Sequence record: KX452698
Origin: Shigella phage KNP5
DNA length: 64,000 nucleotides
Reading direction: 5' to 3' (one strand)
A program made the position numbers and the translations under genes. Of the stretch, positions 4,152 through 46,384 are shown piece after piece (position 1 is the first letter of the stretch; each line of letters begins with the position of its first letter). The notes beneath the pieces are model-generated. The model ran no database searches, was not told where the DNA came from, and saw only the letters and a program-made list of their open reading frames with translations.

Positions 4152-4338
4152 TATCTAAAATGTTGAAGTTAAAAGATACAGCCCAGTCAGTGCAGACCGT
4201 AACCTTTTTAATACAATTATCTTCAACCTCTAGCGGTTCAAACCAATATTCAATAATTTCTTTATGCCCAATATCATCTTTTACTTCGCATTCAAAATGC
4301 TGACTCATCATAACATTTTTAAATTCATCAAAAGTCAT
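4075..4338 (-). CDS. Hypothetical protein (87 aa)
   Basis: ORF directly 3' of gene 47 with ATGA-type start/stop overlap. Confidence 0.45.
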   Translation of the reverse strand: MTFDEFKNVMMSQHFECEVKDDIGHKEIIEYWFEPLEVEDNCIKKVTVCTDWAVSFNFNILDNDTPKSLQDMAVSCIKDAYCEVFDI

Positions 4339-5354
4339 TGTGTTGCCTCTACATATAGCTGATTTGCATATTGAATAAGTGCTTCGCGGTCAGAATCAGT
4401 GATGTCTGGAATTGCATTAATGTATTCTTCCATCAACGTCTGAAGAGATTGAACTTCAACTTCTTCACTATCATCTGACTCGACAGAGTTATCAATCTTT
4501 GACACAACTCGTAATGAATGCACAACTTTTTCTAGTTCAGATTCAAACTTCGTTAGATTTTTGTCTACTTCAGTTACTATAACACGTACTGATAGATTTG
4601 TAAAATCTTTATAGTCAATTTTTCCCTTAAATGGATATTGAATTCGACGATGCCAGGTGGTGTTGTTTGGAATAAATTCCATTCGTTCTGTTTCTGTATC
4701 AAACATCCAGAACCCGCGAGGGTCATTCTCGTCACCTGCAGTTAGTGTCCATGGTGTCCCAATATATCTGACGTTAGCAGCCTCAGAGATAGTATGGAAG
4801 TGACCAGACCACACCTCTTTATAAGTCTTAAGGAAATCAGGTTCAAGACCGTGAGATTTCATTCCTTTATAAAAATAAAATCCATTCAGTTCCCAGTGAC
4901 CAACACAAAAAGAAGCAGATGAAGTTTTGATGTGTTCAAGAATTTCACCAGTATTTTCTTCACACATCCAAGGAATTAAATCAATCAAACATCCGTCAAA
5001 ATCTACTGTAGTAGGCTTATCATATACTTTAACATTAGGATATTTAGCCAAAAGCTCAGTAGAAGCATTTGGATGCATTACATTTTTGTAGTGGAGATCA
5101 TGATTTCCTACAACAGTATGTAGGGTAATACCAGCATCATCAAGCATTTGAACTATTTCACGGGCAAACTCCATAGTTTTATGCGTGATTGCTTTTCGCA
5201 CATCAAAAATATCACCATATTGAATCCATACAGTAATTCCATTTTTCTTAGAATATTCTATCGCTTGCTTAATTCCATCAATTTGAATACCGCGAATCCA
5301 CTCATCATCAGCTTTAACGCCTAAATGCCAATCACCCAAGTTTAGTATTTTCAT
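4335..5354 (-). CDS. 47: Recombination exonuclease subunit gp47 (Mre11/SbcD-like phosphoesterase, 339 aa)
   Basis: N-terminal LNLGDWHLG metallophosphatase motif, GNHD motif; length equals T4 gp47. Confidence 0.95.
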   Translation of the reverse strand: MKILNLGDWHLGVKADDEWIRGIQIDGIKQAIEYSKKNGITVWIQYGDIFDVRKAITHKTMEFAREIVQMLDDAGITLHTVVGNHDLHYKNVMHPNASTELLAKYPNVKVYDKPTTVDFDGCLIDLIPWMCEENTGEILEHIKTSSASFCVGHWELNGFYFYKGMKSHGLEPDFLKTYKEVWSGHFHTISEAANVRYIGTPWTLTAGDENDPRGFWMFDTETERMEFIPNNTTWHRRIQYPFKGKIDYKDFTNLSVRVIVTEVDKNLTKFESELEKVVHSLRVVSKIDNSVESDDSEEVEVQSLQTLMEEYINAIPDITDSDREALIQYANQLYVEATQ

Positions 5355-5831
5355 GGTGTCTTTTCCATCCTAATTTAGCTGCTTTTGAAACCAGTTCTTT
5401 AATTTTTCCTTTTGTCCATTCAGGACCAGGAGGTTCATGACATAACATTTGCTTAACTCCGTTATTATACCATTTTTTACCTTTATTATGTGATGAAGCT
5501 TTAAATTTATTTGACCTTCCTTTTACATAACCTTTTGGAATATAAGGCAAAAAGGNNNNNNNNNNNNNNNNNNNNNNNNNNNNNNNNNNNNNNNNNNNNN
5601 NNNNNNNNNNNNNNNNNNNNNNNNNNNNNNNNNNNNNNNNNNNNNNNNNNNNNNTGAATCAAATAAGTGAGGATTATCTGAAAGCTCTTTATTATAAATT
5701 TTCTTATACTTTTTAGATAAAACTGAACCATGATATCCAGCTAAATGCCTATCTAAAGACGTAGATCCAATATAAAAAGGAGGAAGTTTATCTCCACTAT
5801 ATATTGTTAAATAAGTTATATATTTTTTCAT
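5332..5831 (-). CDS. GIY-YIG-like ORF (possible seg-type free-standing homing endonuclease) broken by a 99-N gap
   Basis: N-terminal fragment KKYITYLTIYSGDKLPPFYIGSTSLDRHLAGYHG resembles the GIY...YIG...R...H nuclease motif; basic C-terminal fragment on other side of gap in a different frame. Confidence 0.35.
5556..5654. other. Run of 99 N (assembly gap or masked sequence)
   Basis: Direct observation; ORF calls crossing it are unreliable. Confidence 0.99.
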
Positions 5832-5992
5832 ATATCAAGAACCGTCATTGAAATGCAAAATAAAATTATTGAAATAAATCCATCTGGAGTGCTAAAGAAC
5901 CCAATCCAACATGCTCTAGTGAATAGATAAAACGCGAGAAAAAGTATCACATATCCAAGAAATATCATTATATCAAACTCCGTATAAAGCTA

Positions 5993-6008
5993 AAGGGCCG
6001 AAGCCCTT
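5993..6008 (-). terminator. GC stem-loop (GGGC-UUCG-GCCC) 3' of a-gt
   Basis: Inverted repeat gggccgaagccc followed on transcript by TTTAGCTTTAT. Confidence 0.45.
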
Positions 6009-7210
6009 TATTTTGTAATAATGTCAAACTGTTCTTTAAAGCAGAAGCTTGAATCTTGATGCTGATACAAAAATTCATAAGCTTTTTCGCGTTCACGGTC
6101 ATAAAGAGCTCGGTCAGATGACAGTTCTTTAATACGTTCAAATGTTGATTCCATGTCATTTTCATCAAACCAAACGATACCGCTATCATGTGAAATTAAC
6201 GGAGTATTATCAACACGGAATTTTAAATTTTCGCCAGTAGATTTCCAAAATACCGGAATTGTTCCGCACGCACCAAGCTCGAGATGAGTATATTCTAAAG
6301 AACGTTGTAGATATTTTTTGTCCAACTTACTCAACTGATAACCAAATCCGGATTTACTCATGCGTTCAAGCATTTCGCTATTTACATAACGGTCGAGAAT
6401 TTGCGTTGGCAAATTAGGAGCAATTTTAATTTGGTCTACTTGATGAAGACGATAATACTCGTATGGAATTCCTTTTTCTTTAATAGGAATGAACGCTGGA
6501 GAACGTTCCAGACCTTCCATAATAGTACTTAGTCCAGCAGGTTTAAGATGTTTTTCGTGAAAATCAAACATCTGATAAAAGCCTTTCCATGTAGTCGTAC
6601 GACCGATCCAACGGTTGACATTCATATTAATTTCAGAAACATCTTTCCAGTAGGTTGATCGAACCTTCGCAATATCCATAGGAGGCTGAAAGTTGTATAC
6701 GGTCGGTGCTTCTTCAATATCATCAAACAGAGAAACTATTTCTGGATACCATTCTTTCATCAAAACTTTATTAAAATCACCATTATCAGAATGGCTAAAA
6801 ATAACATCAGCACGACGAACAGTTTCTTCTAATCCCAAATTTCGACGTAAAGAAAGAGAAGAATGGTCATGTTGATAAACTACAACACGAACCGAAGGTT
6901 TAATGTTATCAATAATTTTTTTATAGTTATTAATAGTGTCTTCTTCTACTGAAGTAGCAGGAACTGAATTGATAATTAGAATATCACAATCATTTACCAG
7001 CTTAAGTGTTTTATCGTATTCTTTTGCCAATAAAACCGGAATTGAAAATGATTTATAATCATGCGCACAATTACGGGTAAATGATTTATCTTTAGCATAA
7101 ACCAAAGTTACTTCATGACCATTTTTAATAAACCAATCACGCTGCTCGAGAGAAAATTTAGTTACGCCGCAACCTTCAAGACCTCGAGCCATAAAAATAC
7201 ATACTTTCAT
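6008..7210 (-). CDS. a-gt: DNA alpha-glucosyltransferase (400 aa)
   Basis: ORF MKVCIFMARGLEGCGVTKFSLEQRDWFIKNGHEV...QFDIITK, same length and colinear with T4 a-gt as recalled. Confidence 0.95.
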   Translation of the reverse strand: MKVCIFMARGLEGCGVTKFSLEQRDWFIKNGHEVTLVYAKDKSFTRNCAHDYKSFSIPVLLAKEYDKTLKLVNDCDILIINSVPATSVEEDTINNYKKIIDNIKPSVRVVVYQHDHSSLSLRRNLGLEETVRRADVIFSHSDNGDFNKVLMKEWYPEIVSLFDDIEEAPTVYNFQPPMDIAKVRSTYWKDVSEINMNVNRWIGRTTTWKGFYQMFDFHEKHLKPAGLSTIMEGLERSPAFIPIKEKGIPYEYYRLHQVDQIKIAPNLPTQILDRYVNSEMLERMSKSGFGYQLSKLDKKYLQRSLEYTHLELGACGTIPVFWKSTGENLKFRVDNTPLISHDSGIVWFDENDMESTFERIKELSSDRALYDREREKAYEFLYQHQDSSFCFKEQFDIITK

Positions 7211-7258
7211 TTAATATCCTCATTGTTTTGGTTTATTTTACCAAAAATTTATAAAGCA
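7211..7258 (-). promoter_or_regulatory. Putative MotA-dependent middle promoter of a-gt
   Basis: TGCTTTA (plus-strand taaagca 7249-7255) followed by A/T-rich -10-like TAAAAT. Confidence 0.3.
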
Positions 7259-7453
7259 ATATAGGAGCCGAAGCTCCTATCCGCATAATACACCGTACAG
7301 AGGCTCATTAGAGCTTCTAAATTTTATACGCTTATATGTTATAGTTCCTTCTGCTTTAGCTTTATCATGAGACTCTTTAAAGCGTCTCATCATTTCTACT
7401 TTAGAGGAACGAATTTTATTATAATCTATTTCAGAAGTCTGGGTGTTCATCTT

Positions 7454-41415: not shown

Positions 41416-41514
41416 NNNNNNNNNNNNNNNNNNNNNNNNNNNNNNNNNNNNNNNNNNNNNNNNNNNNNNNNNNNNNNNNNNNNNNNNNNNNNNNNNNNNN
41501 NNNNNNNNNNNNNN
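41416..41514. other. Run of 99 N (assembly gap or masked sequence)
   Basis: Direct observation; identical length to the gap at 5556-5654. Confidence 0.99.
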
Positions 41515-45107: not shown

Positions 45108-45932
45108 TTAGATATTTGACCAGACTTTGTTTGCAGAGAAACGTTTTCCTTTTGAAACGAACTGCTGAAGTGGCATTAACACAACGTTCGCCCAGTCTTT
45201 CGGGGCGATTTCAACAAGGCTACCCATAATATTACCAGGTATATATGCCTTAATCATTTGGTCTGCACCTCTAAATCCTTTCACTTGACTCCAATCAATT
45301 TTTAATTTCGTTTTATTAGTAATAGTAGGTGTATTTGAATATTGCTTTAAAAGCTCTTCTAGAAATTGCTGACGAGCTTTAGGTGGAATATAGTGCAAGT
45401 TCAATCCGTACATTAAATTATGTTTACCTAAACCAAGATAAATTATCAAAGGAAATTTATCCCAGTAAGGAAGAGTTTCCTTGTGTTTAGCATCATAAGC
45501 AAAAGCATATATTCGTCCCGGCTGCGGGCGAACAACCTTATGTCCTTTTACTTGCTTAATAGTTTCAGCAAACCACTTTCTGGTTTTATTATTAATTGCT
45601 GCGCCTTCATTACGAATTTTATCACGTAATGTTTGCCTGAATGAATTTATCATAAGCAGTTGTCTTTCTTGCTTATTGAGTTTATTCATTGGTTTTGATT
45701 CAAGCTTTTGAATCTTTTCAGCTGTTTTAATTCCTGAAGCATATTTTGACATTGCTGAAGTAAACGTAGAGTATTTGATTCCTCTTTCTTCGGCAAATTG
45801 CTTTCCTGTCATTCCTTTTGCTTTGGCCTTTCTGTATTCAAGACCTATCTGAATCCATTTCTTTTCGTTTAATGATTGCTTAACCTTTGGAACTTGGGGA
45901 GTGCTTTCATTAATTATTTGAAAAATAGCCAT
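45108..45932 (-). CDS. 2: DNA end-protector protein gp2 (274 aa)
   Basis: Length and order 4-2-3-1 as in T4. Confidence 0.85.
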
Positions 45933-46384
45933 TATGCCCCCTTAAAGCCAAGAGCTCGTAATCCATCTTCTGTTAGAATTCTAAATTTTATTCCACGCTT
46001 TTCAGCTAAAGCTTGCGCTGCTTTCCATTTGTCAGTATTAACGGAATATGTATAAATTTCATTCATAAATCTTTTCTTCGCTGCAGTTGTTAGATGTGCT
46101 GGTTTAACTGGTGGTTGTGTTTCTTTTTTAGGTTTTATTTCAATAAAAAATTCTTGTCCAGAAGAATCTTTCATCCAAATATCCATGAAGTATCTACGTT
46201 TTTTCCCTTCTGCATTACAAAAATAAGGAATTACTGCTGTTTCACTACCCCATGCAATAATTTCTGGATTTTTATCTAACCATTCAAAAAAGAATTTTTC
46301 CCAATTTGATCTATACGTAATTTTTTTAGGGTCACCTCTATATTTTGATATATTTTTAGGAACCCATTTTCCAGAATATGCCAT
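45932..46384 (-). CDS. 4: Head completion protein gp4 (150 aa)
   Basis: AAGGAG RBS; length and position match T4 gp4. Confidence 0.85.

What the first reader, a model, noticed from the sequence alone, without database searches (positions are those of the whole stretch)
5332..5831. GIY-YIG-like ORF between genes 47 and a-gt, truncated by a 99-N gap
Upstream of the gap the minus strand encodes KKYITYLTIYSGDKLPPFYIGSTSLDRHLAGYHG, resembling the GIY...YIG...R...H core of GIY-YIG nucleases such as seg-type free-standing homing endonucleases. Downstream of the gap a basic 72-aa ORF in a different frame could be its DNA-binding tail. The gap of exactly 99 N hides the join, so the true length and frame are unknown.
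Basis: partly seen in the sequence, partly recalled or inferred. Interest (0 to 1): 0.5.

Follow-up and report, generated by a model that had tools for sequence, protein, structure and literature searches.

The report
Seg-like GIY-YIG homing endonuclease gene
The two ORF fragments either side of the N-run are one ordinary 207-codon gene for a Seg-type GIY-YIG homing endonuclease, a selfish mobile gene found in about one in eight T4-like phages just upstream of gene 47; it only looks broken because a draft assembly put a 99-N placeholder where about 223 bases belong.

The parts
5332..5831 (-). Whole Seg-like GIY-YIG endonuclease gene as it appears in the window: ATG at 5831-5829, TGA at 5334-5332, interrupted by the N-run. 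The true length in relatives is 624 nt (207 codons plus stop).
   Evidence: REP2 and G28 carry one uninterrupted 207-aa CDS here. In the visible parts the window differs from REP2 at only one nucleotide.
5655..5831 (-). Visible N-terminal part, codons 1-59. It holds the 'GIY' equivalent I5-T6-Y7, 'YIG' Y20-I21-G22 and the Seg-type G32-Y33-x-G35-S36, and forms strands beta1 and beta2 and the first helices of the nuclease domain.
   Evidence: near-invariant Y7, Y20, I21, G22, S23, G35; invariant Y33, S39; strands 4-11 and 19-25; Pfam GIY-YIG alignment begins at residue 4.
5556..5654 (.). 99-N scaffolding placeholder standing for about 223 nt (CDS nt 178-400, residues 60-134). The hidden part includes strand beta3, catalytic E75, N92, the G-x-N-H-P-L-Y-G linker and the first beta-hairpin of the C-terminal region.
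   Evidence: A second 99-N run at 41416..41514 shows the length is arbitrary.
5332..5555 (-). Visible C-terminal part (residues 135-207 plus stop): the basic putative DNA-binding tail with P-x-G-Y-V-K-G-R, K-K-W-Y-N-N-G ... P-E-W-T-K-G-K and a terminal helix. It carries E141K (window 5535) relative to all orthologs.
   Evidence: hairpin 161-172 and helix 186-204, pLDDT about 90; alignment to the SegE C-terminus.
5332..5354 (-). 23-nt overlap between the 3' end of the endonuclease gene (..HHENTKLG*) and the start of gene 47. It contains the four carrier-specific changes, all synonymous in gene 47, at window 5346, 5345, 5340 and 5337 (gene 47 nt 9, 10, 15, 18). This is the cassette boundary and a candidate self-protection or target site.
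   Evidence: 7 of 7 carriers read ATGAAAATACTAAACTTGGGT and 13 of 13 non-carriers read ATGAAAATTTTAAATTTAGGT. There are no other fixed differences within 440 nt on either side.
5828..5968 (-). Gene 47.1 (46-aa predicted membrane protein). Its TGA overlaps the endonuclease ATG (ATGA at 5831-5828). In insert-less phages the same ATGA joins 47.1 to gene 47.
4335..5354 (-). Gene 47 (SbcD/Mre11-like recombination nuclease subunit), the downstream neighbour and the probable target gene.
   Evidence: Orthologs of the endonuclease in other genera also abut gene 47.
5967..6010 (-). The a-gt terminator hairpin (5991-6010), followed by a GCTT-N14-TATAAT motif (5990-5967) that another group annotated as a T4 middle promoter in phage SA20RB. 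The endonuclease gene has no promoter match of its own.
   Evidence: No late-promoter TATAAATA was found in 4 kb. The promoter's function was not tested.

Best explanation
This is a free-standing, Seg-type GIY-YIG homing endonuclease gene. It forms a 601-nt cassette inserted exactly between gene 47.1 and gene 47 of a T4-like phage.

Shown here:
- It is one 207-aa protein with an N-terminal GIY-YIG nuclease domain (residues about 1-95) and a basic C-terminal region.
- That C-terminal region is built from two beta-hairpin 'P-x-G-(W/Y)-x-K-G' modules and a helix, and is related to the C-terminus of T4 SegE.
- The gene is present or absent with base-precise boundaries among closely related phages, and it is under purifying selection.
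- It sits inside the 47.1-to-47 transcription unit, overlapping both neighbours.

Inferred by analogy with SegA-G:
- In a mixed infection the enzyme makes a double-strand break in the insert-less allele, in or near the 5' end of gene 47.
- The break is resected and repaired from the carrier genome, which copies in the cassette and the flanking markers (intronless homing, or marker exclusion).
- The carrier's own copy is probably protected by the insertion itself together with the four synonymous changes in gene 47 codons 3-6.

The apparent truncation and frame change in this window are assembly artefacts.
For: - **One ORF.** Relatives 99% identical over the flanks have an uninterrupted 624-nt CDS, and the 99 N replace 223 nt.
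- **Conserved residues.** E75 and N92 are invariant in 53 relatives, and hhalign places E75 on I-TevI E75.
- **Pfam.** GIY-YIG matches 16 of 53 family members and NUMOD3 matches 26 of 53.
- **T4 relatives.** The family HMM scores SegE at 37 bits, SegG 22.7, SegC 19.1 and SegD 17.4. MobB, MobC and MobD (HNH) score 7.5 bits or less.
- **Mobility signature.** The 601-nt block is absent from T4, with a duplicated ATGAAAA at its ends. The near-identical insert is in 67 records, while about 556 records hold the junction. Within the window's allele, inserts differ by 1-3 of 615 nt while flanks differ by up to 20 of 440 nt. One carrier's upstream flank is identical to T4's.
- **Linked changes.** Four synonymous gene 47 changes are perfectly linked to carriage, in 7 carriers against 13 non-carriers.
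- **Function retained.** dN/dS is 0.05 between the two alleles and 0.09 against the Gelderlandvirus ortholog.
- **Tracks gene 47.** Orthologs in Gelderlandvirus SEA1 and Marfavirus EI, which have no a-gt, also abut and overlap gene 47.
- **Known behaviour of Seg enzymes.** See the review PMC2988022.
Against: - No cleavage, target site or preferential inheritance has been shown for this protein, and no paper on it was found.
- The Pfam GIY-YIG score of 21.4 bits is just below the curated cut-off of 22.6.
- PDB sequence and profile searches found nothing, and hhalign against a single I-TevI sequence is weak (E = 0.31).
- The arginine that is catalytic in I-TevI (R27) has no clearly conserved counterpart; position 28 is R here but K in most relatives.
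- NUMOD3 is not detected in this protein itself.
- Free-standing endonucleases often cut hundreds of bp from their gene (PMC2988022). The four linked changes may therefore only mark the cassette's end, since they fall inside the endonuclease's own last codons.
- The 7 versus 13 comparison is not phylogenetically independent.
- In KNP1 itself residues 60-134, including E75 and N92, are unseen, and E141K affects a conserved motif.
Confidence: 0.8

Rival explanations
1. It is an HNH-family endonuclease, as RefSeq and PHROG 10820 label it.
For: The product name 'HNH endonuclease' appears in many RefSeq records and in phrog_10820. One relative matches the I-HmuI NUMOD-like domain, PF22083. That is a DNA-binding module shared between HNH and GIY-YIG homing enzymes, which probably explains how the label spread.
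Confidence: 0.02
2. In KNP1 the two fragments are not one working gene. The gap hides a rearrangement, frameshift or deletion, so this copy is a pseudogene or two separate short ORFs.
For: Residues 60-134 are unseen. The record is UNVERIFIED. There is one non-synonymous change (E141K) in a conserved motif, 21 nt from the gap. Some database members of the cluster are shorter, at 194, 188 or 141 aa.
Against: The visible 401 nt differ from REP2 at one position only. All 67 near-identical carriers hold the block at full length, 599-602 nt. The apparent frame change is exactly what 223 versus 99 nt predicts. A second 99-N run shows the spacer length is arbitrary.
Confidence: 0.08
3. The nuclease is real but is retained mainly for a benefit to the phage rather than for selfish homing. 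Possible benefits are excluding the markers of co-infecting relatives or promoting local recombination or amplification, as recently reported for SegB.
For: Purifying selection is strong (dN/dS 0.05-0.29), and orthologs stay at the same locus across at least three genera. The gene overlaps gene 47's start and supplies its upstream sequence. A 2026 paper reports that SegB drives amplification of anti-defence loci (PMC13096335, listed; only the abstract was seen).
Against: The distribution is sporadic (about 12% of records) and the presence/absence boundaries are clean. The insert is much more uniform than its flanks. These are the classic signs of a selfish mobile gene. The two readings are not mutually exclusive.
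Confidence: 0.1

Closest known systems
T4 SegE (GIY-YIG free-standing homing endonuclease between inh/hoc and uvsW)
   Same: It is the best-scoring characterised relative: 37 bits with the family HMM, aligned over residues 2-199 of 205. It shares the layout Y-x-x-x-Y ... YIG ... G-Y-x-G-S ... E ... Y-x-N-M in the N-terminal half and W-x-NNG ... P-x-G-(W/F)-x-KGR in the C-terminal half. It is similar in size (205 vs 207 aa) and is also free-standing between phage genes.
   Different: Direct pairwise similarity is marginal (phmmer 13 bits). The insertion site and presumed target differ (47.1/47 rather than hoc/uvsW). The loop between 'GIY' and 'YIG' is two residues longer, with a conserved K-L-P-P. 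The function of this protein has not been tested.
T4 SegG (between genes 32 and 59)
   Same: It is the second-best T4 relative in the nuclease domain (22.7 bits). It shares the unusual P-P-(F/Y)-Y-I-G-S motif and the E ... F-N ... G-x-F-G ... H-P linker. SegG is the textbook case of marker exclusion with co-conversion from a distant cut site (PMC2988022).
   Different: Only the N-terminal 100 or so residues align, and the C-terminal regions are unrelated.
I-TevI (td intron GIY-YIG endonuclease; PDB 1LN0/1MK0)
   Different: I-TevI is intron-encoded. Sequence identity is only 17-21%. I-TevI's zinc finger and helix-turn-helix DNA-binding domain were not detected here, and I-TevI's R27 and H31 have no clear counterparts.
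Paralogs upstream of the topoisomerase large-subunit gene (Yersinia phage TG1 gp009, Escherichia phage HX01 gp190)
   Same: The catalytic half is about 67% identical over residues 3-110. They are also free-standing and overlap the 5' end of the downstream essential gene.
   Different: The C-terminal half is unrelated and consists of NUMOD3 repeats, and the locus is different. This is the usual pattern of one nuclease module joined to different DNA-binding tails at different targets.

Membership tests
GIY-YIG nuclease superfamily (Pfam PF01541) | 'GIY' and 'YIG' motifs on the first two beta-strands | tested here: met
   I5-T6-Y7 and Y20-I21-G22 are visible in the window itself (5831-5655). Y7, Y20, I21 and G22 are near-invariant in 53 relatives. 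They lie on strands 4-11 and 19-25 of the model. The Tyr-to-Tyr spacing is 13, against 11 in I-TevI.
GIY-YIG nuclease superfamily (Pfam PF01541) | Catalytic glutamate (I-TevI E75) and conserved asparagine (I-TevI N90) | tested here: met
   E75 and N92 are invariant in 53 relatives, and hhalign puts E75 on I-TevI E75. Caveat: in this window both residues lie inside the N-run, so the test is met for the gene family and unseen for KNP1's own copy.
GIY-YIG nuclease superfamily (Pfam PF01541) | Conserved arginine shortly after 'YIG' (I-TevI R27) | tested here: inconclusive
   R28 is present in this protein, but the position is K in most relatives and is not among the conserved columns. No residue-level structural superposition was available.
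GIY-YIG nuclease superfamily (Pfam PF01541) | Three-stranded antiparallel sheet flanked by helices (the GIY-YIG fold) | tested here: met
GIY-YIG nuclease superfamily (Pfam PF01541) | Score above Pfam's curated gathering threshold | tested here: not met
   The score is 21.4 bits against a cut-off of 22.6 (E = 3e-4) for the full-length protein, and there is no hit for the window's 58-aa fragment. Sixteen of 53 relatives match at E <= 0.01. This is a near miss on a sequence threshold, and the fold evidence outweighs it.
[quoted passage not shown]
   It lies between 47.1 and 47 and overlaps both. The neighbouring genes are intact with or without it.
Seg-type free-standing homing endonucleases of T-even phages | Sequence relationship to SegA-G | tested here: met
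   Family HMM scores: SegE 37.0 bits, SegG 22.7, SegC 19.1, SegD 17.4; SegA and SegB are marginal and SegF gives nothing. E-values were computed for a nominal database of 1000 sequences.
Seg-type free-standing homing endonucleases of T-even phages | Sporadic presence among close relatives with precise boundaries | tested here: met
   Sixty-seven records carry the insert at >= 95% identity, and about 556 records hold the junction. The 601-nt block has identical boundaries in all 7 carriers examined.
Seg-type free-standing homing endonucleases of T-even phages | Site-specific cleavage of the endonuclease-less allele and biased inheritance in mixed infection | not testable with these tools
   There is only indirect support: the insert is more uniform than its flanks, and four linked synonymous changes lie next to the insertion.
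Seg-type free-standing homing endonucleases of T-even phages | C-terminal NUMOD-type DNA-binding region | tested here: inconclusive
   NUMOD3 (PF07460) is found in 26 of 53 relatives but not in this protein at E <= 1. The tail does align with SegE's C-terminus and is modelled as two beta-hairpins plus a helix.
HNH endonucleases (the database label) | HNH / beta-beta-alpha-metal motif detectable by profile or fold | tested here: not met
   No HNH Pfam family matched the protein or its 53 relatives. No HNH structure appeared among the hits. There is no similarity to T4 MobB, MobC or MobD.

The most novel reading that the evidence does not exclude
The enzyme's target may be the translation-start region of gene 47 itself. 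Gene 47 encodes a subunit of the gp46/47 nuclease that T4 is known to need for resecting double-strand breaks. The cassette replaces gene 47's ribosome-binding region and recodes its codons 3-6. If so, this would be a homing endonuclease that is physically and translationally interlocked with part of the machinery its own homing depends on. Losing the cassette would then be costly, because a clean deletion would remove gene 47's start context. That could explain why orthologs stay at this one locus across several genera under strong purifying selection.
Probability: 0.12. Interest if true: 0.4.

Novelty: new member of a known kind. Interest (0 to 1): 0.2.

Why it matters
The result mostly clears up bookkeeping. 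It shows that an apparently truncated, frame-shifted ORF in a draft phage genome is an intact, ordinary mobile gene. It also shows that the widespread RefSeq/PHROG label "HNH endonuclease" for this protein family is wrong, because the protein has a GIY-YIG fold and is related to the Seg enzymes.

Beyond that, it adds an uncharacterised Seg-like lineage with a defined insertion site (47.1/47), a candidate target or self-protection site (gene 47 nt 9-18), and natural carrier and non-carrier phage pairs. Some of these are in the public BASEL collection, so homing could be tested directly. It does not open a new biological question.

Tried and rejected
- **PDB sequence searches.** Searches with the single protein and with a 53-sequence profile found no relative. 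Fold comparison was needed instead.
- **hhalign.** The family alignment against the single I-TevI catalytic-domain sequence was weak (E = 0.31). I used it only for the E75 correspondence.
- **NCBIfam.** It gave only a chance match.
- **IMG/VR scan.** An exact gene 47 pattern returned only 4 contigs, all without the insert, so the annotated phage collection was used.
- **Paralog in the window as the cause of the assembly break.** None was found. tblastn of T4 SegA-G, I-TevI/II and MobB-D against the window found nothing. A weak HMM hit at 45111-45941 was not significant.
- **Own promoter or regulatory hairpin.** Sigma-70-like matches were at or below the number expected by chance. No T4 late-promoter TATAAATA occurs in 4 kb. 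There is no RNA structure around the start codon (z = +1.3).
- **Literature.** Three searches found no paper naming or testing a gene at the 47.1/47 junction, and the 2010 review of T4 mobile elements does not list it.
It is not conserved in the family.

Full report
**What is in the sequence**

The window is a T4-like phage. Over 5200-6100 it is 100% identical to GenBank KX452694, 'UNVERIFIED: Escherichia phage KNP1 genomic sequence'. That record is unannotated and carries the same N-run.

On the minus strand the gene order is a-gt (6008-7210), a terminator hairpin (5991-6010), 47.1 (5828-5968), the ORF in question, then gene 47 (4335-5354). The ORF starts at 5831 with ATG and overlaps the 47.1 stop as ATGA. 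It reads MKKYITYLTIYSGDKLPPFYIGSTSLDRHLAGYHGS...PHLFDS and then runs into exactly 99 N at 5556-5654. After the N-run a basic 72-aa ORF in another frame ends at 5332, 23 nt inside gene 47.

**The gap**

A second run of exactly 99 N at 41416-41514 also cuts a coding region. The number is therefore a scaffolding placeholder and not a measurement.

Phages REP2 and G28 are 99.1-99.6% identical over the flanks, and they have 223 nt where the window has 99 N. One search printed 224 because it omitted the real base at 5655. With that base counted, the hidden stretch is CDS nt 178-400. Because 223 mod 3 = 1 and 99 mod 3 = 0, the 'different frame' is an artefact.

In those phages a single 624-nt CDS of 207 aa spans the whole region. 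The window's visible 401 nt differ from REP2 at one base, CDS nt 421 G>A. This gives E141K at window 5535, 21 nt from the gap edge. All 67 near-identical copies in the phage collection are full length. The gap hides residues 60-134.

**What the protein is**

Sequence evidence alone is borderline:
- Pfam GIY-YIG scores E = 3e-4 and 21.4 bits, against a cut-off of 22.6. The window's 58-aa fragment alone gets nothing.
- PHROGs places the protein in phrog_10820, labelled 'HNH endonuclease', and more weakly in phrog_314, 'homing endonuclease'.
- PDB sequence and profile searches were empty.

I collected homologs: 170 at E <= 1e-3. Many carry NUMOD3, and P0001 differs from the REP2 protein only at D66N. 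I aligned 53 of them and predicted the structure, which has mean pLDDT 86.7 and 93-98 over residues 1-100. The fold evidence is clear:
- Foldseek's only credible PDB matches are the I-TevI catalytic domain (1MK0 and 1LN0, probability 0.97-1.00). All other hits have E >= 1.
- BFVD matches are named GIY-YIG, Seg-like or NUMOD proteins.

In the family alignment E75 and N92 are invariant. Y7, Y20, I21 and G22 are near-invariant. After I verified my recalled I-TevI sequence against PDB, hhalign placed E75 on I-TevI's E75, although the overall score is weak.

Scanning the 53 members individually against Pfam gave NUMOD3 in 26, GIY-YIG in 16, and SegE_GIY-YIG, I-TevI_ZnF and I-HmuI_NUMOD-like in one each. 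No HNH family matched.

**Relation to the characterised T4 enzymes**

I extracted SegA-G, I-TevI, I-TevII and MobB, MobC and MobD from the T4 record and scored them with an HMM of the family:

| T4 protein | Score (bits) |
|---|---|
| SegE | 37.0 (residues 2-199 of 205) |
| SegG | 22.7 |
| SegC | 19.1 |
| SegD | 17.4 |
| MobB, MobC, MobD (HNH) | 7.5 or less |

The SegE alignment covers both halves. The N-terminal half shows Y-x-x-x-Y...YIG...G-Y-x-G-S...E...Y-x-N-M, and the C-terminal half shows W-x-NNG...P-x-G-(W/F)-x-KGR.

The conserved element after 'YIG' is therefore G32-Y33-x-G35-S36, as in Seg 'DGYMGSG'. R28 is K in most relatives. Whether any residue substitutes for I-TevI R27 remains open.

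The 'HNH endonuclease' label is not supported. The identical protein is called 'HNH endonuclease' in RefSeq and 'GIY-YIG domain-containing protein' in UniRef.

**Is it a mobile element?**

- *Precise insertion.* T4 lacks the gene. In T4, 47.1 and 47 are joined by ATGA. In carriers a 601-nt block sits exactly there, bounded by a duplicated ATGAAAA.
- *Sporadic distribution.* The near-identical block (>= 95% identity) is in 67 phage records, while about 556 records hold the junction.
- *Linked changes.* I compared 7 carriers with 13 non-carriers. Within 440 nt on either side, the only fixed differences are four changes at gene 47 nt 9, 10, 15 and 18: ATT>ATA, TTA>CTA, AAT>AAC and TTA>TTG. All four are synonymous for gp47 and all lie in the 23-nt overlap.
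- *Uniform insert in varied flanks.* Two insert alleles about 3.5% apart exist. Within the window's allele, inserts differ by 1-3 of 615 nt while flanks differ by up to 20 of 440 nt. One carrier's upstream 466 nt are identical to T4's.
- *Purifying selection.* dN/dS is 0.05 between the two alleles (19 synonymous against 4 non-synonymous changes), 0.09 against the Gelderlandvirus ortholog and 0.27-0.29 against the Marfavirus ortholog.
- *Association with gene 47.* Both of those orthologs also abut and overlap gene 47, in phages that have no a-gt. The association is with gene 47, not with '47/a-gt'.
- *Module shuffling.* Paralogs with a catalytic half about 67% identical but an unrelated, NUMOD3-rich C-terminal half sit directly upstream of the topoisomerase large-subunit gene in Yersinia phage TG1 and Escherichia phage HX01.

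**How it most likely works**

I infer the mechanism by analogy with the Seg enzymes as reviewed in PMC2988022. In a mixed infection the enzyme cuts the insert-less allele. The break is resected and repaired from the carrier genome, and the cassette and nearby markers are copied in.

The four linked changes are a candidate for self-protection or the target site. However, they also fall in the endonuclease's own last codons. The review notes that free-standing enzymes can cut hundreds of bp from their gene. The changes may therefore only mark the cassette's end.

Expression appears to come from the 47.1-47 transcription unit. I found no promoter of the gene's own, no late-promoter consensus and no masking RNA structure. 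A GCTT-N14-TATAAT motif upstream is annotated as a middle promoter in phage SA20RB.

**Verdict**

This is an ordinary, uncharacterised member of a well-known class. I found no paper on it. Interest is low. The useful by-products are a corrected annotation and a ready-made test system.

What cannot be said from this window is whether KNP1's own copy is intact, because the catalytic Glu and Asn lie under the N-run.

Noticed in passing
window 41416-41514: There is a second run of exactly 99 N, also inside minus-strand coding sequence, with ORF fragments on both sides. It is the same placeholder artefact, so the gene there is likewise only apparently broken and its true length is unknown.
   Followed up: partly
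window 5535 (CDS nt 421 of the endonuclease gene): G>A relative to REP2 gives E141K in the P-E-G-(Y/W/F) motif, which is conserved in all orthologs examined. It lies 21 nt from the gap edge and may be a contig-end sequencing error in this unverified draft.
   Followed up: partly
window 7210-7280 (between a-gt and the a-gt.2-like ORF): T4 carries the HNH gene mobB between a-gt and a-gt.2, and this phage does not. tblastn of T4 MobB, MobC, MobD and SegA-G against the whole 64-kb window found nothing. The Seg-like gene studied here is therefore the only T4-type homing endonuclease detected in the window.
   Followed up: partly
L001 (phage G28) 1-192, next to gene 46.1: G28 has an extra CDS annotated 'homing endonuclease' between genes 46 and 46.1. 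REP2 and the window lack it. This is another variable endonuclease insertion in the same gene cluster.
   Followed up: no
L024 1498-2181 (Yersinia phage TG1) and L025 1498-2181 (Escherichia phage HX01): These paralogs share the catalytic half (about 67% identity) but have an unrelated NUMOD3-rich tail. They sit directly upstream of, and overlap, the topoisomerase large-subunit gene. T4 carries the defective HNH gene mobA nearby, between 60.1 and gene 39.
   Followed up: partly
database annotation of the 207-aa protein (P0126 and cluster members): The same sequence is named 'HNH endonuclease' (RefSeq, PHROG 10820), 'GIY-YIG domain-containing protein' (UniRef), 'putative homing endonuclease', 'SegE homing endonuclease' (for an ortholog) or 'hypothetical protein'. 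The HNH label appears to be a propagated error.
   Followed up: yes
window 5967-5990, minus strand: A GCTT-N14-TATAAT motif is annotated as a T4 middle promoter in phage SA20RB. Its -10 element overlaps the 47.1 start codon. Transcripts from it would therefore begin inside 47.1 and serve the endonuclease gene and gene 47 rather than 47.1.
   Followed up: no
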